Source: Bacilli bacterium (GTDB lineage: Bacteria > Bacillota_I > Bacilli_A > RFN20 > CAG-826). Taken from it: a DNA stretch of 64,000 nt. The stretch covers positions 25,146-89,145 of the forward strand of contig JAFYAZ010000034.1 in the NCBI GenBank assembly GCA_017540455.1, read 5' to 3'. The position numbers and the translations under genes were made by a program. The notes beneath the pieces are model-generated. The model had not been told where the DNA came from. It saw only the letters and a program-made list of their open reading frames with translations, and ran no database searches. Shown here piece after piece: positions 27,319-60,115 of the stretch; position 1 is the first letter of the stretch, and each line of letters opens with the position of its first letter.

Positions 27319-27393
27319 TGGCTGGGGTGACTGGGTTCGAACCAGTGCATCTCGGATTCAGAGTCCGATGCCTTACCGCTTGGCTACACCCCA
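27319..27393 (-). tRNA. tRNA-Gln (anticodon CUG), CCA encoded
   Basis: Reverse complement is TGGGGTGTAGCCAAGCGGTAAGGCATCGGACTCTGAATCCGAGATGCACTGGTTCGAACCCAGTCACCCCAGCCA. U1-A72 is typical of tRNA-Gln. Anticodon loop is CUCUGAA. Confidence 0.85.
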
Positions 27394-30612: not shown

Positions 30613-31268
30613 AAATCGATGTTTAAGAAGGCCTTCGCACCGCTCTTATAGCCAAGGAAGCTGAAGAGGACATAGAGAATGATTCCCGCTCCCAAGGTTA
30701 ATAGCTGTGTGATTAATCCTATAGCGTCATATTCCCTCAAAGCAGGGATGAAGGCAATAACCAACGATCCTGCGGTAAGGAGGAGAACGCAGACAATAAG
30801 GGAGACGATGCTAGGTCCGGTGAGCCTCTTATATGGATCGCGGTAATACATGCTTAAGAGGACAAGGTTCATGACGCCGAAGGACATGAAGGCGAAACCT
30901 AATAAGGAGATGCTAGGTCTAGTGGCCATGAAATAGGCAAGCTCCTCAGGTTTCTCTGGGGCTGGATATAAGAAGAACCTGACAAGGCCAGCAATCGCGG
31001 CCAATAGGATCACCACAATCTCGACAAGGCCTAAATAAAGGGCTTTTGCCTTGACAATGTCGGTCTTCTTAATCGGGAGAAGAGATGTGTATTCGATGTC
31101 TTTGTTGGCAAGACAAGTTGGGAATAACGCCATCAGTCCGCTTAAAGGATAGACGAAGGCGATTGCCGGTGGCCATGATGGGATAAGGACGAAAACGGCA
31201 AAACAGGTGAAAAGGATAATTTGGATGTTTGTGCAAAGCACAATCTCTTTATAAAGAAGCTTTTTCAT
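30609..31268 (-). CDS. ABC-2 type transporter permease
   Basis: 219 aa, 6 TM. Start and stop overlap the neighbouring genes by 4 nt each. Confidence 0.65.
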   Translation of the reverse strand: MKKLLYKEIVLCTNIQIILFTCFAVFVLIPSWPPAIAFVYPLSGLMALFPTCLANKDIEYTSLLPIKKTDIVKAKALYLGLVEIVVILLAAIAGLVRFFLYPAPEKPEELAYFMATRPSISLLGFAFMSFGVMNLVLLSMYYRDPYKRLTGPSIVSLIVCVLLLTAGSLVIAFIPALREYDAIGLITQLLTLGAGIILYVLFSFLGYKSGAKAFLNIDL

Positions 31269-32116
31269 TCTTGCTCACCCCTTTCGAAAGCGACCATGAT
31301 TTCTTCCATGGAAGCCTTTCTTTTCTCGACGCCTTCTTTAGCGTCAATCTCTTCTTCTTTTTTCATGATGCCTTCGAATTTTCCAAGGCGGTCACGATAG
31401 AAGATGAATCTGTCTTTCTCTTTGGCGAGAATCTCGCTTGGTCCTTCGTAATGGAGATAGGCGGATTCGAAGGTTGAGACGCTTTCGTTAACGATGACCT
31501 CCCCTTTCTTGATGTAGATGATGTCATCCGCGCATTTCTCTAAGTCAGAGATGACGTGCGTGGAGAAGAGGATTGAGTGTTCCTTGTCGCTTACGAGATC
31601 AAGGAAGATATCGAGGAGCTCATCCCTGCTCACTGGATCTAAACCAGAGGTTGGCTCATCAAGAAGGAGGATTTTTGCGCCTCTAGATAAAGCGAGAGCG
31701 AGGCCATATTTGACCTTCATACCGGTTGAGAGGGCTTTGATTTGCTTGGTCTCGTCGATATTGAAGGTTTCAAGGTATCTGTGATAAAGGTCCTCGTCCC
31801 AGTTCTTATAGAACTTCTTGGTGACGTTCGTTAATGATTTGACGGTTTTGGTGCCGTAATAGTTCATCTCGCCGATGAGCATCGCGGCTTCTTGTTTGTA
31901 GTCCGCTTCAACATCGATGATTGGTTTTGAGTCGTATAGGACCTCACCGCTAGTTGGCTTAGCAAGGTTATAAATGCACTTGAGGGTTGTGGTTTTGCCT
32001 GCGCCGTTTCTTCCGATGAAGCCGATGATTTTGCCTGGCTTGATCTCAAAAGAGACGTCTTTGAGGTCGAACTTCTCGTAGTGCTTGCAAAGGTTCTTCA
32101 CCTCGAGGATCTTCAT
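31265..32116 (-). CDS. ABC transporter ATP-binding protein
   Basis: 283 aa. Walker A GRNGAGKTT, signature LSTGMKVKYGLALAL, Walker B ILLLDEPTSGLD. Has a C-terminal extension. Confidence 0.85.
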   Translation of the reverse strand: MKILEVKNLCKHYEKFDLKDVSFEIKPGKIIGFIGRNGAGKTTTLKCIYNLAKPTSGEVLYDSKPIIDVEADYKQEAAMLIGEMNYYGTKTVKSLTNVTKKFYKNWDEDLYHRYLETFNIDETKQIKALSTGMKVKYGLALALSRGAKILLLDEPTSGLDPVSRDELLDIFLDLVSDKEHSILFSTHVISDLEKCADDIIYIKKGEVIVNESVSTFESAYLHYEGPSEILAKEKDRFIFYRDRLGKFEGIMKKEEEIDAKEGVEKRKASMEEIMVAFERGEQE

Positions 32117-32316
32117 TTTTTCTCTCCTTGTTCCATGATTTCGTAGAAAAGGTCAGTCTTCAAAAGGGCGAGGCCTCTTTTCTTATCGCCCATGACCATA
32201 AGGGTATCCCCTTCTTTGATGTCGAACATCTTTCTTCCCTGGACTGGGATGGTGATCTGGCCTTTAGGGCCCACTCTGACGCTGACGATGAATCTATTGT
32301 CTTCGATTACTTTCAT
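32113..32316 (-). CDS. AbrB/MazE/SpoVT-family DNA-binding protein
   Basis: The track ORF extends to 32418. The start is placed at the ATG at 32316 with a strong SD (GACGGAGGAAAGAC-ATG). The protein is MKVIEDNRFIVSVRVGPKGQITIPVQGRKMFDIKEGDTLMVMGDKKRG, a swapped-hairpin domain. Confidence 0.7.
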   Translation of the reverse strand: MKVIEDNRFIVSVRVGPKGQITIPVQGRKMFDIKEGDTLMVMGDKKRGLALLKTDLFYEIMEQGEKK

Positions 32317-32350
32317 GTCTTTCCTCCGTCTTACTTTTCTTACTTTTCTT

Positions 32351-32379
32351 ATTCTACTATTCCCTTCGTTTTTGTGCAA
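32351..32379 (-). promoter_or_regulatory. sigma-A-type promoter of the AbrB-ABC operon
   Basis: Minus strand has TTGCAC, a 17-nt spacer, then TAGAAT. The leader is about 17 nt and contains a 9-bp tandem repeat (GAAAAGUAA x2). Confidence 0.5.
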
Positions 32380-32454
32380 TATCCCCCACAAAAATAAAAA
32401 AGAGCGGGGTTTTGCCACTCATTTTTAAAAAAGAAAGGTTCTTTTAAATAACAA

Positions 32455-32655
32455 AAAGGGCCCACCACTTCTGATGAGCCCGCTTTTTTGATAGAGATGA
32501 GGAGGGTGGAACTATAGGATAATCCTCATTCTATGAATGGATGCTGGAGCGGGGAAAGGAGATACCGCTCACCGGTGCATCCATGAAACAGGAAATGCCA
32601 GAGGCAATTGTGTTTTCATTTGCTTAAGCCCAAAAAGGGAAGGAACAGGATTTTA
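32455..32655 (-). ncRNA. candidate small structured RNA (strand uncertain), flanked by terminator hairpins
   Basis: A 340-bp protein-free interval. Possible promoter TTGCTT-N17-GATAAA. It contains an 8-bp helix AUGGAUGC/GCAUCCAU enclosing a GAGCGG/CCGCUC helix, and CU-rich single-stranded tracts (UCUCCUUUCCCC, CCACCCUCCUCAUCUC). It ends in GGGC...GCCC-UUUUUGUUAUUU. Confidence 0.3.
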
Positions 32656-32756
32656 TCGCCTCTATATGGATCTTAAGCAAAGGTATGTTAACACCCCACT
32701 TGTCACAAAAGTGCAACGGATAAGGCTAATTTTCAAAAGTTTTTTCGAAAACGTAT

Positions 32757-32787
32757 GAAAAAGCAGCCATTTTGGCTGCTTTTACCT
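32757..32787. terminator. bidirectional terminator after the LytTR response-regulator gene
   Basis: AAAAAGCAGCCATTTTGGCTGCTTTTACC. Confidence 0.65.
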
Positions 32788-32798
32788 TTTTCCGATTC

Positions 32799-33557
32799 TT
32801 AGAAGGTTTCGAAGACCGGCCAAGAATACTGAATCATGTATTCCCCACGGTACATGCGTACCGCGTCAGGATTCCCTTTCTTGTATTCGTAGGCATCGCA
32901 TTCGACTTTATCGACGTCGATCGAATACCCGTTATGGCTTTTCACGAAGACATCTTGGCAGCCAACGTCCTTAAGGGTTTTCTGAATATCGGCGATAAGG
33001 TTCCTTAAATAGGACTTATGGTCTTCTTCCCAAAGGACAGCATTGAGTTCGTTGATGTTGATCGCCGAACCTTCTCTGTCGACTAAATAGGCGAAGAGCT
33101 CTTTTGACTTCGAATATGAGAAGCGAAGAGGTTTGGCGTCATAGAAGACCTCAAAATTGCCAAAGCATTTGATCTGAAGGTCTTTGGATGGCCTAAGTTC
33201 GATTGGATAGCGGAGTCCCTCCACTTCTTCTTTGACTTTGGCTTCGCTGACAGGCTTAGAGACATATCCTGAAGCGTGGAGCTTCATCGCTTCTCTTGCG
33301 TAGTTGTCATAGGCAGTCACGAAGATGATGTTGATCTTTGGGTTGATGGCTTTGAGCTTTTTGGCGAGCGCGACCCCATTGAGTCCAGGCATTTCGATAT
33401 CGAGGAAAGCTATGTCGATTTGGCTCTTCTCATTCTCGCTATAAGCTTGCAGAGGGTTGATATATGAAAGGGTCTCCGCGTCAGGAAGGACTTTCTTGAC
33501 CGCGCCCTCAAGCCTCATGAGCTGAAGCTTTTCATCATCGACTAGCAACACTTTCAT
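32799..33557 (-). CDS. LytTR-family two-component response regulator
   Basis: The track ORF extends to 33638. The start is placed at MKVLLVDDE (33557; SD AGGTGAG). It has a REC domain and a C-terminal LytTR DNA-binding domain. Confidence 0.85.
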   Translation of the reverse strand: MKVLLVDDEKLQLMRLEGAVKKVLPDAETLSYINPLQAYSENEKSQIDIAFLDIEMPGLNGVALAKKLKAINPKINIIFVTAYDNYAREAMKLHASGYVSKPVSEAKVKEEVEGLRYPIELRPSKDLQIKCFGNFEVFYDAKPLRFSYSKSKELFAYLVDREGSAININELNAVLWEEDHKSYLRNLIADIQKTLKDVGCQDVFVKSHNGYSIDVDKVECDAYEYKKGNPDAVRMYRGEYMIQYSWPVFETF

Positions 33558-33565
33558 AATCTCAC

Positions 33566-34822
33566 CTATTTGTAGAAGAAAACCGTGACGGTCGTTCCTT
33601 GATCGATCACGCTTTCGACCTGAACATCGCCTTTGCACATCGAAGAGATGCGGTATTTGATGTTATTGAGTCCGAAATGGTCGTCTCCTTTGATGGCATC
33701 GACTTTGAAACCAATGCCATTGTCGCTGACAACCACGACATAAGCGTCCCTGTCCTCATAGGTCTTGATGGTAAGGGTCCCACCTTCGATCTTCTTGAGG
33801 ATGCCATGTTTGATCGCGTTCTCGACGATTGGTTGCAAGGACAAAGCTGGGACCATGAAGTCTTTCGTCTGGATGTCATAAACGACCTCCAAACGGTCTT
33901 CGAACCTCATCTTCTCTAAAGAGATGTAGGTTTCGATGTGCTTTAATTCATCGGAGAAATTGACTAGGCCGTTCTTTGATAAGGATGAAAGGTTGGCCCT
34001 AAGGTAATCGGTGAAATGGTCGAGGCCTTGCTGGGCTTTTTCCGGATCAATCGGGATGAGGGTCGAGATCGAAGCGAGGACGTTATAGATGAAGTGAGGC
34101 TGAATTTGGGAGATCATGATTTTCACTTCCGCATCCTTGATCTTTTTCGCCTCATCGGCAAGCTTCATGTTCTTCCTGACGTTGACGAAGAGGAAGAGAA
34201 TCTCAACGCCGATGAAGACGGAAAGATAGGCAATCGCATATCCTGGGAAGATGTTTTGAAGGATTATCGCGACCAAAGGCAACAAACAATAGACGGCAAA
34301 GGAGATTTTCTCGCCAACCGTGACTTTCTTATGAAATAAGGCTAAGCATAGGACCATCGCAAAGGTAACGAATTGATAGCCTTGTGAGAGGATCATCATC
34401 TTTGATCTCATGTAAACTCCATTCTCCGCGTAGAAGAACATGTGGTTGAAGATATTCATGACATCTAAGGCGATGAAGACGGCATATAAGCTCAAGCTTA
34501 TGACAAGAAGGATGTTGAAGGTCTCCTTTTTGACTGGCATATAGGAAGTCGCGTAGACAAAAAGAAGGAGAACCTGGAAGTTGTTCATCACGTAGAAGCT
34601 TGTGTAGAAGCCGATGATGAACTCATTGCTCGTGTAATACATCTTGATGATGGTGAAGGTGAGATACACGGCAAGATGGAAGGCATAGAAAGCGATGAAA
34701 AAGAGGAGATTGTTCTCATCTCTTCTTCTGTTCTTTTTGAGAAGTACGTCTACCGTATGAATAAGCAAAAGGGCAATGCCGATAATGCATACGGTTGCAT
34801 TGAATACGCTTTTATTATCCAT
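33566..34822 (-). CDS. sensor histidine kinase, LytS/YehU-type (His_kinase PF06580 + HATPase), polytopic N-terminus
   Basis: 418 aa with about 6 N-terminal TM helices. The QIQPHFIYNVLASI H-box is typical of LytTR-partner kinases. A GHKL ATPase C-terminus. A TATAAT box lies 8 nt upstream of the ATG, so the mRNA is nearly leaderless. Confidence 0.85.
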   Translation of the reverse strand: MDNKSVFNATVCIIGIALLLIHTVDVLLKKNRRRDENNLLFFIAFYAFHLAVYLTFTIIKMYYTSNEFIIGFYTSFYVMNNFQVLLLFVYATSYMPVKKETFNILLVISLSLYAVFIALDVMNIFNHMFFYAENGVYMRSKMMILSQGYQFVTFAMVLCLALFHKKVTVGEKISFAVYCLLPLVAIILQNIFPGYAIAYLSVFIGVEILFLFVNVRKNMKLADEAKKIKDAEVKIMISQIQPHFIYNVLASISTLIPIDPEKAQQGLDHFTDYLRANLSSLSKNGLVNFSDELKHIETYISLEKMRFEDRLEVVYDIQTKDFMVPALSLQPIVENAIKHGILKKIEGGTLTIKTYEDRDAYVVVVSDNGIGFKVDAIKGDDHFGLNNIKYRISSMCKGDVQVESVIDQGTTVTVFFYK

Positions 34823-34968: not shown

Positions 34969-35160
34969 TTAATGGGCGCCAAGTCCGAAGACGAGTCCAA
35001 GGACAAGGACGAGGATGGTAAGAAGGCCGATTCCAGAGATGAGGAGAACGTATTTGGCCTTCTTCTCTTTCTTTTGAGCCTTTGCCGTCTCTGATCCGTA
35101 CTGCTTAAAGGCTTCTTTGTCCCATTCGGAACCTTCTTCTTCATACCAGAAGTTGTCCAT
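34969..35160 (-). CDS. small single-TM protein (63 aa) upstream of the LytTR TCS
   Basis: Strong SD (AAGGAGGAAAAAC-ATG). An acidic N-terminus, a Lys-rich segment, and a C-terminal TM helix with small-xxx-small motifs (GIGLLTILVLVLGLVFGLGAH). Confidence 0.5.
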   Translation of the reverse strand: MDNFWYEEEGSEWDKEAFKQYGSETAKAQKKEKKAKYVLLISGIGLLTILVLVLGLVFGLGAH

Positions 35161-35573
35161 GTTTTTCCTCCTTACGAAACAAAGTGGCTTTTCGGCAGAA
35201 TATGACGAAAACGCTTTTGGTGAACCAAATATAAATCACAGAGTGTCACAGAAGCGCCACAAAGAAGGGATATTTTTCCCTAAAGATGAAAAAAAGCCTG
35301 ATTTATAAATCAGGCAATTTTCCAAAGGGTTATTTGGCCTTCTTAACAGTGCCTCCTTCAAGGAGAACCATCTTGACCGCTTGGATGGAATAATCCCATA
35401 TCCTAAAGATGCCTGCGCAATAAAAGTGCCACACTTTATGTGATTTTTATTTTCTTTATATCTTTGATATAAACGATACTATATTATGTCTAAATTACTA
35501 AAATATGCGTGTTTTGTACAACAAAACAAATTTTTACAAAAAGTACGTTTTTGATATTTTGAGAAGACAAAGA

Positions 35574-35610: not shown

Positions 35611-35688
35611 TGGGGCGGAATAGGAGATTTGAACTCCCGAATGACCGGTTCACAGCCGGTTGTGTTAGACCACTTCACCAATTCCGCC
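35611..35688 (-). tRNA. tRNA-His (anticodon GUG) with encoded G-1 and CCA
   Basis: Reverse complement is GGCGGAATTGGTGAAGTGGTCTAACACAACCGGCTGTGAACCGGTCATTCGGGAGTTCAAATCTCCTATTCCGCCCCA. An extra 5' G pairs with discriminator C73. Anticodon loop is CUGUGAA. A promoter TTGCTA-N17-TAAACT lies upstream. Confidence 0.85.
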
Positions 35689-58011: not shown

Positions 58012-59430
58012 TTATTCTTTATCTGAGATCTTGTTTTCAAATCTTGATTTTCTTGTGTCGCTAGGAATCGCCGTTGGGTAACTTCCATCGAAGCAAGCCG
58101 TGCAGCATTCCCCTCCCGCGATGTCCTTGACGTTTTCGACCGAGAGGAAGCCTAGCGAATCCGCGCCGATGATCTTCGCGATTTCCTCCACCGAATGGTG
58201 GCAGGCGATGAGGTAATCCCTCGAATCGATGTCCGTGCCATAGTAGCAAGGATTGAGGAAGGTCGGCGACGATATCCTCATGTGGATTTCTTTGGCGCCC
58301 GCATCGCGAAGAAGCTTGATTGTCTTCTTGCTTGTCGTGCCTCTGACGATTGAGTCATCGATGACCACCACTCGCTTGCCTTTGACGACCGAGGAGACAG
58401 GATTGAGCTTGAGTTTGACTTTGTCTTCTCTGTTATCTTGGCCGGGAGCGATGAACGTGCGGCCGATGTATTTGTTTTTGATATATCCGATTTCGTAAGG
58501 AATGCCCGATTCCTTTGAATAACCGATCGCGGCATCAAGACCGGAATCCGGGACACCGATGACGATATCGGCTTCGACTGGATGGGATTTTGCGAGGTAT
58601 TCGCCCGCTTTGACCCTGGCGGAATGGACGGAGATGCCATCGATCACTGAGTCAGGTCTGGCGAAATAGACGAATTCGAAGGCGCAGATGTGCTTCTTTT
58701 GCTTGCCGCAGTGCGTCTTGATTGAGTGAACGCCGTCCTTGTCGAAATAGACGACTTCGCCTGGGAGGACGTCACGGACGAACTTGGCGCCGACGGAATC
58801 GAGGGCGCAGGTTTCGCTAGCGGCGATATAGGTGCCATCGTCTCTCACGCCATAGCAAAGAGGCCTGAAACCGAATGGGTCACGGGCGATGACGAGTTTT
58901 GTCGGTGACATCAAAACAAGAGAATAGGAACCCTTGATGGTGTACATCGCGCGTTCCACCGCCTCTTCGATTGAGTTCGAGGTGATTCTTTCTCTGGTGA
59001 CTATGTAGGAAATGACCTCAGTGTCTGAGGTTGTATGGAAGATTGAGCCTTGGAGTTCAAGCTGGGAGCGGAGTTCCAAGGAGTTGGTGATATTGCCATT
59101 GTGGGCGATGGCGATATGGCCATGGATATGATTGACGACAAGAGGCTGGGCGTTATGCCTATCTGTGCAGCCTGTGGTGCCATATCTGACATGACCGACG
59201 GCGATGTTTCCTTGTCCAAGGCGGGCAAGGTGGCGTTCGGTGAAGACCTCTTCGACAAGGCCTAAGTCTTTGTATGTCGAGAAAACGCCATCGTCACAGA
59301 CGACGATGCCGCAGGACTCTTGTCCACGGTGCTGGAGGGCGAATAAACCGTAGTATGCGGTTCTGGCGACGTCTTGCTTTGCTGGCGAATAGACGCCGAA
59401 GATTCCGCATTCTTCATGTAACGATGACAT
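58012..59430 (-). CDS. purF: amidophosphoribosyltransferase (canonical, with propeptide and Cys1)
   Basis: 472 aa. MSSLHEE propeptide followed by CGIFGVYS...[10 protein letters not shown], PRTase DDSIVRGTT, and C-terminal Fe-S cysteines [10 protein letters not shown]. Confidence 0.9.
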
Positions 59431-60017: not shown

Positions 60018-60115
60018 TCTACGAGTGTGCCCAGACGGTCGACGTAATTACTGAATTTTTATTATTGCTCCACTGCGTTAATTCGCATCTACCGTCAGTC
60101 ACAATAATACTTTCG
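60018..60115 (-). promoter_or_regulatory. candidate ZTP (pfl-motif) riboswitch in the purE leader, with overlapping terminator-like expression platform down to about 59975
   Basis: Minus-strand transcript is GUAUUAUUGUGACUGACGGUAGAUGCGAAUUAACGCAGUGGAGCAAUAAUA...(19-nt linker)...CGACCGUCUGGGCACACUCGUAG. It has a P1 helix AUUAUUG/CAAUAAU and a UGACUG-ACGG segment that resembles the conserved UGACUGGCG. A P2 hairpin UGCG-aauuaa-CGCA is followed by GUGGAGC. The 3' CCGUC-UGGGCA can pseudoknot with GACGG and shows covariation relative to GGCG/CGCC. A downstream imperfect hairpin CACACUCGUAGAA...UUCUAGCAGCGUG is followed by UCUUUUUAUUUUUU. Confidence 0.45.

What the first reader, a model, noticed from the sequence alone, without database searches (positions are those of the whole stretch)
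32420..32756. Terminator-flanked, highly structured 340-bp protein-free interval: candidate sRNA gene
No convincing ORF with an RBS lies between the LytTR-RR terminator (32757..32787) and the AbrB-operon promoter (32351..32379).

The interval contains a plausible promoter (TTGCTT-N17-GATAAA on the minus strand). It also has a long nested hairpin (AUGGAUGC...GAGCGG..CCGCUC..GCAUCCAU). There are several single-stranded CU-rich tracts (UCUCCUUUCCCC, CCACCCUCCUCAUCUC) that could act as anti-SD seeds, as in RsaE/RoxS-type sRNAs. It ends in a GC hairpin plus U-tract (32455..32495).

On the opposite strand the same region is bounded by terminator-like hairpins at both ends, so the orientation is ambiguous. 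It does not resemble SRP, RNase P or tmRNA, and whether it is a 6S RNA cannot be judged from sequence alone.
Basis: seen in the sequence. Interest (0 to 1): 0.55.

Follow-up and report, generated by a model that had tools for sequence, protein, structure and literature searches.

The report
Response-regulator-driven small RNA gene
The protein-free gap very likely holds a 226-nt non-coding RNA gene on the minus strand, switched on by the neighbouring two-component sensor system; it is a new RNA family of a familiar kind.

Summary

- **Orientation and extent.** The RNA lies on the minus strand at 32678..32453 (226 nt). It ends at the intrinsic terminator 32481..32458 plus a U-tract.
- **Promoter.** The conserved element is a direct repeat, GTTGCACTTTTGTGACA (32717..32701), then 10 nt, then the -10 box TAACAT.
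- **Operator evidence.** The same repeat-plus-(-10) module occurs 44 times, always on the regulator's strand, in 590 kb around homologous regulators. There it precedes peptide-precursor, radical-SAM-like and secreted-protein genes, and the sensor operon itself (window 35260..35244).
- **The regulator.** It is OmpR/PhoB-type, not LytTR.
- **Homologues.** Seventeen distinct RNAs of three types sit behind regulators at least 82% identical, whatever gene follows. They are far more conserved than synonymous sites of the regulator gene. They fold well only on this strand and contain no conserved ORF. All show a CU-rich (anti-Shine-Dalgarno-like) hairpin loop.
- **Rfam.** No match.
- **Missing.** Expression data and targets.

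The closest analogues are FasX/fasBCA and the CiaR-dependent csRNAs. It is a new member of a known kind.

The parts
32799..33557 (-). Response-regulator gene (252 aa): REC domain plus OmpR/PhoB-type winged-helix domain. Inferred activator of the sRNA promoter.
   Evidence: Pfam finds Response_reg only. There is a weak Trans_reg_C hit in the C-terminal half. JGI's name for homologues is 'two-component SAPR family response regulator'. The AlphaFold model's best full-length PDB matches are all OmpR/PhoB-family regulators.
33566..34822 (-). Histidine-kinase gene (418 aa) with a multi-pass membrane N-terminus.
   Evidence: Pfam His_kinase PF06580 plus HATPase_c.
34969..35160 (-). 63-aa small membrane-protein gene, first gene of the sensor operon.
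   Evidence: ORF with the SD AAGGAGG. It is conserved upstream of the kinase in relatives.
35244..35260 (-). Second copy of the direct-repeat operator, GTGGCGCTTCTGTGACA. It is followed after 10 nt by TATATT, upstream of the sensor operon, and implies autoregulation.
   Evidence: These are the only two sites in the 64-kb window (0.09 expected by chance).
32759..32783 (-). Terminator of the sensor operon (GCAGCC..GGCUGC plus U5).
   Evidence: Conserved in all relatives.
32701..32717 (-). Direct-repeat operator GTTGCACTTTTGTGACA: two GTGRC units 11 bp apart, occupying the -35 region.
   Evidence: one mismatch to the consensus. Consensus TGTGGCACTTtTGTGaCA from 43 unique sites, all 44 occurrences on the regulator's strand.
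32685..32694 (-). Extended -10 GTGTTAACAT. The -10 hexamer TAACAT is at 32690-32685, 10 nt after the repeat.
   Evidence: Invariant TG[TC]TA[AC]CAT in all homologues. The same 10-nt spacing to a TAnnnT box is the commonest at other sites of the operator.
32453..32678 (-). The sRNA, 226 nt, from the inferred start 7 nt after the -10 box to the last U of the terminator.
32622..32678 (-). SL1: a three-tier 5' stem-loop (P1 GCUUAAG/CUUAAGC, then P1b, then P1c) with a 15-nt loop UAAAAUCCUGUUCCU at 32655-32641.
   Evidence: P1 is kept in all 17 RNAs. P1b has a different sequence in each type but still pairs.
32585..32606 (-). Small hairpin UGCC-UCU-GGCA (32606-32596) followed by the conserved motif CCUGUUUC (32592-32585).
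   Evidence: CC[UA]GU[UC]UC is present in all three types.
32537..32584 (-). SL3: the nested hairpin that presents the CU-rich loop UAUCUCCUUUCC (32564-32553).
   Evidence: A G-C to A-U compensatory change occurs in the outer stem (window versus L004/L005/L010/L104).
32491..32534 (-). SL4 hairpin AUAGAAUGAGGA / UCCUCAUCUCUAU. In type-B relatives the same hairpin is followed by U7 and acts as the terminator.
32453..32481 (-). Intrinsic terminator: a 10-bp stem with 6 G-C pairs, plus UUUUU.
32402..32420 (-). Second, weaker terminator-like hairpin plus a U-run, between the sRNA and the next promoter.
   Evidence: The stem is not kept in L005.
32351..32378 (-). Separate sigma-70-type promoter (TGCACA-N16-TAGAAT) of the AbrB-like / ABC-transporter operon. 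Not part of the sRNA.
   Evidence: Conserved in type A and type B loci.

Best explanation
The interval carries a stand-alone gene for a 226-nt non-coding RNA on the minus strand (32678..32453).

Proposed mechanism:
1. The OmpR/PhoB-type response regulator encoded just upstream is phosphorylated by its membrane kinase.
2. It binds as a tandem dimer to the direct repeat GTTGCAC-TTTT-GTGACA, which replaces a -35 box, and recruits RNA polymerase to the extended -10 TGTTAACAT.
3. Transcription starts about 7 nt downstream, at GCUUAAG, and stops at the GC-rich hairpin plus U-tract.
4. The RNA folds into a 5' three-tier stem-loop, a small central hairpin, a nested hairpin displaying UCUCCUUUCC in its apical loop, a fourth hairpin and the terminator.
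5. The CU-rich loops resemble the anti-Shine-Dalgarno 3' tail of 16S rRNA (CCUCCUUUCU in Bacillus subtilis; from general knowledge). They most likely pair with ribosome-binding sites of target mRNAs and so change their translation or stability.

The RNA would thus be a post-transcriptional output of the sensor system. In relatives the equivalent promoter drives peptide-precursor and radical-SAM-like genes instead.

Shown by comparison:
- the promoter/operator module;
- the terminator;
- linkage to the regulator gene;
- sequence constraint and strand-specific structure;
- absence of a conserved ORF.

Inferred:
- binding by this regulator and its dependence on phosphorylation;
- the exact start site;
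- base-pairing as the mode of action;
- the targets.
For: Promoter/operator:
- The repeat occurs twice in the window, against 0.09 expected.
- GTGRC-N6-GTGRC occurs 44 times in 590 kb around homologous regulators, always on the regulator's strand, giving the consensus TGTGGCACTTtTGTGaCA-N10-TAtaaT.
- It precedes Nif11-like precursor peptides, radical-SAM-like genes, large signal-peptide proteins and the sensor operon.

Regulator type:
- Foldseek places the full-length model with PhoP, VanR, DrrB, PrrA, KdpE and similar regulators.
- Regulators of that family are known to bind direct repeats (general knowledge).

Stand-alone unit:
- Promoter, RNA and terminator follow the regulator gene whether the next gene is AbrB-like/ABC (types A and B) or a 2-hydroxyacid dehydrogenase or LysR-like gene (type C).
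- The downstream genes have promoters of their own.

Constraint (RNA identity versus four-fold-site identity of the regulator gene):
- window-L010: 92% versus 64%.
- L008-L206: 83% versus 52%.
- L006-L215: 89% versus 74%.

Structure:
- z = -4.6, -4.7 and -4.4 for types A, B and C; -1.1 for the opposite strand.
- 36 of 312 paired columns vary, against 98 of 356 unpaired columns.
- Compensatory or wobble-path changes occur in SL3, SL2 and P1b.

Non-coding:
- No conserved frame.
- No similarity to precursor peptides.

CU-rich loop:
- Present in a hairpin loop in all 17 RNAs.
Against: - There are no transcript data; all sequences come from metagenomes or MAGs.
- The start site and regulator binding are inferred only from position and analogy.
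- Only 17 distinct sequences in three clusters exist, so covariation is thin. RNAalifold on the global alignment keeps only the SL3 stem.
- Within-type alignments show about as many broken pairs as compensated ones in type A.
- The paired-versus-unpaired test is partly circular, because the structure was predicted from the same alignments.
- The central part of the RNA folds differently in type B.
- Target prediction inside the window gave only generic strong-SD hits, with z about -2.5 to -2.8.
- The first half-site in the window deviates from the consensus (GTTGC instead of GTGGC).
Confidence: 0.65

Rival explanations
1. It is a cis-acting leader or attenuator. The regulator-dependent promoter exists to drive the downstream operon (AbrB-like regulator plus PmtA-like ABC exporter). 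The structured RNA is then a 5' leader whose terminator(s) are conditionally read through.
For: In relatives the equivalent promoter drives protein-coding operons. The RNA and the AbrB/ABC operon are co-oriented and adjacent in types A and B. The SL1 loop CCCUGUUCC is 8-9 nt complementary to the ABC ATPase start region in L005/L104/L010.
Against: - Type C has the RNA but a different downstream gene.
- The downstream genes keep their own sigma-70-type promoters.
- Type A has two tandem terminators, the first a strong 10-bp GC-rich stem.
- No alternative antiterminator pairing was seen.
- No riboswitch or leader family matched.
Confidence: 0.12
2. It is a protein-binding or sponge RNA rather than a base-pairing RNA. 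The repeated CCUGUUYC and CU-rich motifs would be binding sites for an RNA-binding protein, or would titrate another RNA.
For: CCUGUU[UC]C occurs twice in types A and B (in the SL1 loop and after SL2) and once in type C. No specific mRNA target emerged.
Against: No known protein-sequestering RNA family matched. The motifs are unlike the GGA loops of CsrB-type RNAs (general knowledge). CU-rich loops are the classic seed of Firmicute base-pairing sRNAs.
Confidence: 0.1
3. It is an evolutionary remnant. The regulator-dependent promoter once drove a peptide (RiPP-like) operon that has decayed. The transcript, if made, would have no function.
For: The same promoter position drives Nif11-like precursors and radical-SAM-like genes in more distant relatives. 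The RNA body differs strongly between types A, B and C, at about 57-60% identity.
Against: Within types the RNA is much more conserved than synonymous sites. A terminator is maintained in all three types. There is no residual similarity to precursor peptides. Strand-specific stability is seen in all types.
Confidence: 0.08
4. It encodes a very small peptide or is a dual-function RNA, as RNAIII is with hld.
For: Short ATG ORFs of 16-17 codons exist on the minus strand (read directly from the sequence).
Against: None has a Shine-Dalgarno sequence, since this strand is CU-rich. The ATG of the first ORF is lost in L004, L005 and L104, and the second is frame-shifted in L005 and L010. Plus-strand ORFs change frame between the window and L010.
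Confidence: 0.04

Closest known systems
FasX and the fasBCAX locus of Streptococcus pyogenes (PMC12675982)
   Same: A sensor-kinase/response-regulator operon is followed directly, on the same strand, by an independently transcribed sRNA gene. The promoter of that gene carries the regulator's binding site, and the sRNA is the system's effector.
   Different: FasA is a ComE-like regulator, whereas this one is OmpR/PhoB-type. There is no sequence or structure match in Rfam. The operator here is GTGRC-N6-GTGRC and replaces the -35 box, rather than lying upstream of one. The hosts here are uncultured rumen Bacilli. Here the operator also precedes the sensor operon itself, and in relatives it precedes protein-coding operons.
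CiaR-dependent csRNAs of streptococci (PMC3091779)
   Same: The sRNA genes are recognised as a response-regulator direct-repeat promoter in an intergenic region followed by a terminator. Anti-SD sequences lie in unpaired regions.
   Different: The CiaR box is TTTAAG-N5-TTTAAG. csRNAs are 51-202 nt with two stem-loops flanking a single-stranded seed, and there are two to six copies per genome. Here there is one copy per locus, 190-240 nt long, with four or five hairpins, and the seeds sit in hairpin loops.
RsaE/RoxS-type C-rich sRNAs of Firmicutes
   Same: Pyrimidine-rich loops are predicted to pair with Shine-Dalgarno regions, and expression is controlled by a two-component system.
   Different: No hit to any Rfam family, RsaE included if it is in the library. 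This RNA is longer, and its motif is CUCCUUUC rather than CCCC.
OmpR/PhoB- and SARP-type activator promoters (general knowledge)
   Same: Tandem direct repeats with 11-bp periodicity overlap the -35 region at a fixed distance from the -10 box.
   Different: The repeat sequence is specific to this regulator clade. Binding has not been tested.

Membership tests
Any Rfam 15 family (including 6S, RsaE, RNAIII, SRP, RNase P, tmRNA, riboswitches and leaders) | Covariance-model score at or above the family's gathering threshold. | tested here: not met
   There is no hit in the interval at gathering thresholds. At E<=10 the listed matches score 11-25 bits against cut-offs of 45-100 bits. The three printed alignments, and the coordinates of most others, centre on the terminator hairpins.
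6S RNA | The 5' and 3' ends pair into a long closing stem around a central bubble. | tested here: not met
   In all three types the 5' end pairs locally (P1, within the first 57 nt) and the 3' end is a terminator hairpin.
csRNA (CiaR regulon) | A promoter with TTTAAG-N5-TTTAAG upstream of the -10 box. | tested here: not met
   The repeat here is GTTGCAC-TTTT-GTGACA.
csRNA (CiaR regulon) | An anti-SD sequence in an unpaired region, with a promoter plus terminator in an intergenic region. | tested here: met
   UCUCCUUUCC lies in the SL3 loop, and the promoter and terminator are defined.
FasX-like arrangement | An sRNA gene immediately downstream of, and co-oriented with, the regulator gene, separated from it by a terminator, and carrying the regulator's site at its promoter. 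| tested here: met
FasX-like arrangement | A ComE-like response regulator and homology to FasX RNA. | tested here: not met
   No LytTR domain was found in Pfam. The best full-length structural matches are all OmpR/PhoB-family regulators. No Rfam match.
Response-regulator-activated promoter (OmpR/PhoB type) | Tandem direct repeats about one helical turn apart at a fixed distance from the -10 box, recurring at several promoters next to the regulator gene. | tested here: met
   All 44 sites lie on the regulator's strand, with 11-bp periodicity, and a 10-nt spacing to TAnnnT is the commonest arrangement. There are two sites in the window against 0.09 expected.
Response-regulator-activated promoter (OmpR/PhoB type) | Physical binding of the phosphorylated regulator, and regulator-dependent transcription. 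| not testable with these tools
   This needs EMSA or footprinting and expression data.
Trans-acting base-pairing sRNA | A detectable discrete transcript and at least one mRNA target with a conserved pairing site. | tested here: inconclusive
   No expression data are available. The scan of start regions in the window gave only generic strong-SD hits. The 8-9-nt match to the ABC ATPase start region is not conserved.

The most novel reading that the evidence does not exclude
In one clade of uncultured rumen Bacilli, a peptide-cluster-associated two-component system may have swapped its output. The promoter that drives RiPP-like precursor and maturase genes in relatives now drives a fast-evolving sRNA. 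The hairpin loops of that sRNA copy the anti-Shine-Dalgarno tail of 16S rRNA, making the RNA the main effector of the system. This would be a FasX-like architecture that arose independently with an OmpR-type regulator.
Probability: 0.3. Interest if true: 0.55.

Novelty: new member of a known kind. Interest (0 to 1): 0.42.

Why it matters
- It would add a new, uncatalogued sRNA family with a clearly assignable regulator and operator, in a group of rumen bacteria that has never been cultured. Almost nothing is known about RNA regulation in that group.
- The operator consensus found on the way defines the regulon of a widespread family of peptide-cluster-associated regulators. That makes their target genes predictable from sequence alone.
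- The locus also shows how one regulator-dependent promoter can be re-used for a protein operon or for an RNA.
- The concept itself, a two-component system with an sRNA output, is well established, so the surprise for a specialist is moderate.

Tried and rejected
- **Rfam.** Searched at gathering thresholds and at E<=10. Nothing credible appeared.
Rejected: its -35 box is the 5' arm of the conserved P1 stem, and its -10 box is not conserved.
- **Coding potential on either strand.** Rejected on frame shifts and missing SD sequences.
- **Remnant of a RiPP precursor.** tblastn of Nif11-like precursors against the interval gave only noise, with E of 18 or more.
- **Extra copies.** An nhmmer profile of the 17 RNAs found one copy in the window. 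It found none in loci whose regulator is below about 82% identity, including L211-L214 and L224-L227.
- **Metagenome pattern scan.** Only L088, L102, L104, L170 and L190 were real, and L201 is doubtful.
- **Global RNAalifold over all three types.** It kept only four pairs, all in SL3, because the MAFFT alignment between types is poor. Per-type folds were used instead.
- **An alternative long-range pairing in type C.** RNAalifold proposed that the 5' end pairs with UUCUUGGGY. It is not possible in types A or B, so it was not adopted.
- **Target search among 64 crude gene starts in the window.** The best hits were a Cthe_2159-domain protein, a PurF-like protein and a lipid-kinase-like protein. 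All simply have strong SD sequences.
- **SL1-loop match to the ABC ATPase start region.** The match is 9 nt in L010 and 8 nt in L005/L104, interrupted in the window and poor in type B. It is kept as a lead only.
- **Literature.** A search for COG3947 gave nothing relevant.

Full report
**1. The observation**

The interval 32420-32756 lies between two minus-strand units.
- Upstream is a response-regulator gene (32799-33557), preceded by a histidine-kinase gene and a 63-aa membrane-protein gene.
- Downstream is an operon for an AbrB-like protein, an ABC ATPase closest to PmtA, an ABC-2 permease and a lipoprotein-like protein.

The scan tool finds terminator-like hairpins at 32759-32783, 32481-32458 (minus) and 32420-32402 (minus). 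It also finds the downstream operon's promoter at 32378-32351.

The only ORFs in the interval are short and lack a Shine-Dalgarno sequence.

Folding is strongly strand-specific.
- Whole interval: z = -6.2 on the minus strand against -1.7 on the plus strand.
- RNA proper: z = -4.6 against -1.1.

**2. No known RNA family**

Rfam 15 gives no hit in the interval at gathering thresholds. At E<=10 every listed match is far below its family's threshold, at 11-25 bits against 45-100 bits. The printed alignments centre on the terminator hairpins.

**3. Source and relatives**

Exact copies of the neighbouring ABC protein occur only on metagenome contigs whose intergenic region is identical.

A scan of species-representative genomes with the regulator protein returned 80 loci. 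All are MAGs, mostly labelled as from ruminants, and variously labelled Bacilli, Erysipelotrichaceae, Acholeplasmatales, Bacillales or Clostridia.

nhmmer found the interval's sequence downstream of the regulator gene only in the closest relatives. Look-ups of regulator homologues added more.

In total there are 17 distinct RNA sequences in three types.
- **Type A:** the window, L004, L005, L104 and L010; about 226 nt.
- **Type B:** L006, L102, L170, L215, L217 and L218; about 190 nt.
- **Type C:** L007, L008, L204, L206, L210 and L221; 232-240 nt.

All sit behind regulators at least 82% identical to the window's. Loci with regulators at 79% identity (L211-L214, L224-L227) lack the RNA.

In type C the gene after the RNA is a 2-hydroxyacid dehydrogenase, or a convergent LysR-like gene, not the AbrB/ABC operon. 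The element therefore travels with the regulator, not with the downstream operon.

**4. The promoter**

The best-conserved block in the whole intergenic region is, on the minus strand, GT[GT]GC[AG]CTT[TC]TGTG[AG]CA, then 10 nt ending in TG[TC], then the hexamer TA[AC]CAT, then 6 nt, then GCTTAAG.

The same direct repeat (GTGRC-N6-GTGRC) occurs 44 times in the 590 kb of the 80 regulator loci.
- All 44 lie on the regulator's strand.
- The 43 unique sites give the consensus TGTGGCACTTtTGTGaCA-N10-TAtaaT.
- The sites lie just after the regulator's stop codon, or in front of the following: Nif11-like precursor peptides (MKKELLKGLTEEQI...), radical-SAM-like genes, very large signal-peptide proteins, and the small-ORF/kinase/regulator operon itself.

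In the 64-kb window the motif occurs exactly twice, at 32717-32701 (one mismatch) and 35260-35244. Only 0.09 occurrences are expected by chance. The second copy sits 10 nt before TATATT, upstream of the sensor operon.

The regulator has no LytTR domain.
- Pfam finds only the receiver domain.
- The C-terminal half gives a weak Trans_reg_C hit.
- JGI names homologues 'SAPR family response regulator'.
- An AlphaFold model (mean pLDDT 78) matches OmpR/PhoB-family regulators over about 220-230 alignment columns as its best full-length PDB hits.

Regulators of that family bind tandem direct repeats one helical turn apart (general knowledge). This fits the 11-bp periodicity and the fixed distance to the -10 box. 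I therefore read 32717-32685 as a regulator-dependent promoter. The start site would be about 7 nt after TAACAT, at G 32678. Binding and the start site are inferred, not shown.

Its '-35' box is the conserved P1 stem arm, and its '-10' box is not conserved in types B and C.

**5. The RNA**

From 32678 the transcript runs 226 nt to the U-tract at 32457-32453.

Predicted modules:
- **SL1 (32678-32622).** A three-tier stem-loop: P1 GCUUAAG/CUUAAGC, then P1b UCCA/UGGG, then P1c, closing a 15-nt loop UAAAAUCCUGUUCCU.
- **Central region.** A small hairpin UGCC-UCU-GGCA, followed by the conserved CCUGUUUC.
- **SL3 (32584-32537).** A nested hairpin with the apical loop UAUCUCCUUUCC.
- **SL4 (32534-32491).**
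- **Terminator (32481-32458).**

Types B and C fold equally well, with z = -4.7 and -4.4.

Features shared by all 17 RNAs:
- the P1 stem;
- a P1b helix whose sequence differs by type but still pairs: UCCA/UGGG, UCC/GGA, CCUUA/UAAGG, CCCAAA/UUUGGG, CUCAAA/UUUGGG, CCAAA/UUUGG;
- the CC[UA]GU[UC]UC motif;
- a hairpin that displays a CU-rich loop: UCUCCUUUCC in type A, CCCUUUCCUUUCUUUC in type B, UCUCCUUUCUCCUCC in type C.

Clean compensatory events are few.
- G-C to A-U in the SL3 outer stem of type A.
- C-G, then U·G, then U-A in the type C SL3 base (L007, L210, L204).
- C-G to U-A at the base of the type B central hairpin (L006 versus L215).
- In type B all four variable paired columns keep pairing.

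Type A also has three broken pairs, two of them in the L004 MAG contig.

Over the three per-type alignments, 36 of 312 paired columns vary against 98 of 356 unpaired ones (Fisher p = 2e-7). This test is partly circular, because the structures were predicted from those same alignments.

**6. Constraint**

Within each type the RNA is much more conserved than four-fold-degenerate sites of the adjacent regulator gene.

| Pair | RNA identity | Four-fold-site identity |
|---|---|---|
| window-L005 | 95% | 80% |
| window-L010 | 92% | 64% |
| L006-L215 | 89% | 74% |
| L008-L204 | 82% | 62% |
| L008-L206 | 83% | 52% |

This argues for purifying selection on a non-coding sequence. Between types the RNA body has diverged to about 57-60% identity, with only the blocks listed above retained.

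**7. Not coding**

- The minus strand is CU-rich and has no SD-ATG combination.
- The 16- and 17-codon ATG ORFs lose their start or change frame in L004, L005, L010 and L104.
- Plus-strand ORFs change frame between the window and L010.
- Nif11-like precursors from relatives have no similarity to the interval.

**8. Mechanism**

The best-supported reading is a stand-alone sRNA activated by the two-component system.

The conserved loop CUCCUUUC(U) equals eight to nine bases of the 16S rRNA 3' tail (CCUCCUUUCU in Bacillus subtilis; general knowledge). It could therefore pair with strong Shine-Dalgarno sequences (GGAGG, AAAGGAG) and block or modulate translation initiation.

A duplex scan of four single-stranded regions against 64 crude gene starts in the window gave only generic strong-SD hits at z about -2.5 to -2.8.

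One lead remains. The SL1 loop CCCUGUUCC is perfectly complementary over 9 nt (L010) or 8 nt (L005, L104) to GGAACAGGG in the start region of the adjacent ABC ATPase gene. The match is interrupted in the window (GGAACAAGG) and poor in type B. By a rough count, such a match is expected by chance with a probability of about 0.1 or more.

Targets are therefore unknown.

**9. Rivals**

- **Leader or attenuator for the downstream operon.** This is disfavoured because the downstream gene differs in type C, the downstream genes keep their own promoters, and type A has two terminators in tandem.
- **Decayed remnant.** This is disfavoured by the constraint data and by the maintained terminators.
- **Peptide-coding function.** This is disfavoured by the frame analysis.
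- **Protein-binding role.** This cannot be excluded.

**10. Comparison with known systems**

The architecture matches fasBCAX of Streptococcus pyogenes. There the sensor operon is followed by the independently transcribed fasX, whose promoter carries the FasA site, and FasX is the effector (PMC12675982).

It also matches the logic used to find the CiaR-dependent csRNAs: a regulator direct-repeat promoter in an intergenic region followed by a terminator, with anti-SD sequences in unpaired regions (PMC3091779).

It is not a member of either family. The regulator class, the operator sequence, and the RNA's size and fold all differ, and no covariance model matches.

**11. Verdict**

This is a real feature and very probably a regulator-dependent sRNA gene of a new family. 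In concept it is a new member of a known kind. Interest is moderate. The most useful by-product is the operator consensus for a widespread family of peptide-cluster-associated regulators.

Noticed in passing
window 35228-35260 (minus): A perfect copy of the direct-repeat operator (GTGGCGCTTCTGTGACA), then 10 nt, then TATATT, lies upstream of the 63-aa ORF / kinase / regulator operon. This implies autoregulation of the sensor system.
   Followed up: yes
L009, L011, L017, L021, L023, L026-L028, L035, L054, L057, L075, L105: In more distant relatives the same operator precedes Nif11-like precursor peptides (MKKELLKGLTEEQIAKVKAC..., some with GG motifs), radical-SAM-like genes and a C39-type ABC exporter. 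The regulator family therefore appears to control RiPP-like clusters.
   Followed up: partly
L033, L036, L044, L050, L056, L061, L065, L070, L078: In other relatives the operator right after the regulator gene drives very large proteins (about 580-1300 aa) with signal-peptide-like N-termini.
   Followed up: no
window 32317-32350 (minus): The 5' UTR of the AbrB-like operon is a purine-rich tandem repeat (AAGAAAAGTAAG, twice, then ACGGAGGAAAGAC). It is almost identical in type A and type B loci although synonymous sites there have diverged about 40%. It may be a regulatory site in its own right.
   Followed up: partly
window 32113-32160 and L005/L010/L104 equivalents: The start region of the ABC ATPase gene (GGAACAGGG in L005/L010/L104, GGAACAAGG in the window) is complementary to the sRNA's SL1 loop CCCUGUUCC. 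The match is not conserved in type B.
   Followed up: partly
window 31265-32116 (minus): The ABC ATPase is closest to the PmtA model (phenol-soluble-modulin exporter), at 233 bits, below the 350-bit cut-off. With the ABC-2 permease this suggests a peptide export or immunity transporter.
   Followed up: no
window 60022-60112 (minus): A ZMP/ZTP riboswitch (pfl motif) scores 49.2 bits, above its gathering threshold. A PurF-like gene lies at 58012-59430 (minus).
   Followed up: no
window 27322-27393 and 35614-35687 (minus): Two tRNA genes. The second lies just upstream of the sensor-operon promoter region.
   Followed up: no
window 32402-32420 (minus): A second terminator-like hairpin lies between the sRNA terminator and the next promoter. 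Its stem is not maintained in L005, so it may be incidental.
   Followed up: partly
L201:291-620: A metagenome contig carries a similar repeat plus TGTTACCAT but has an unrelated, A-rich downstream sequence. It may be another target of a related regulator or a chance match.
   Followed up: no
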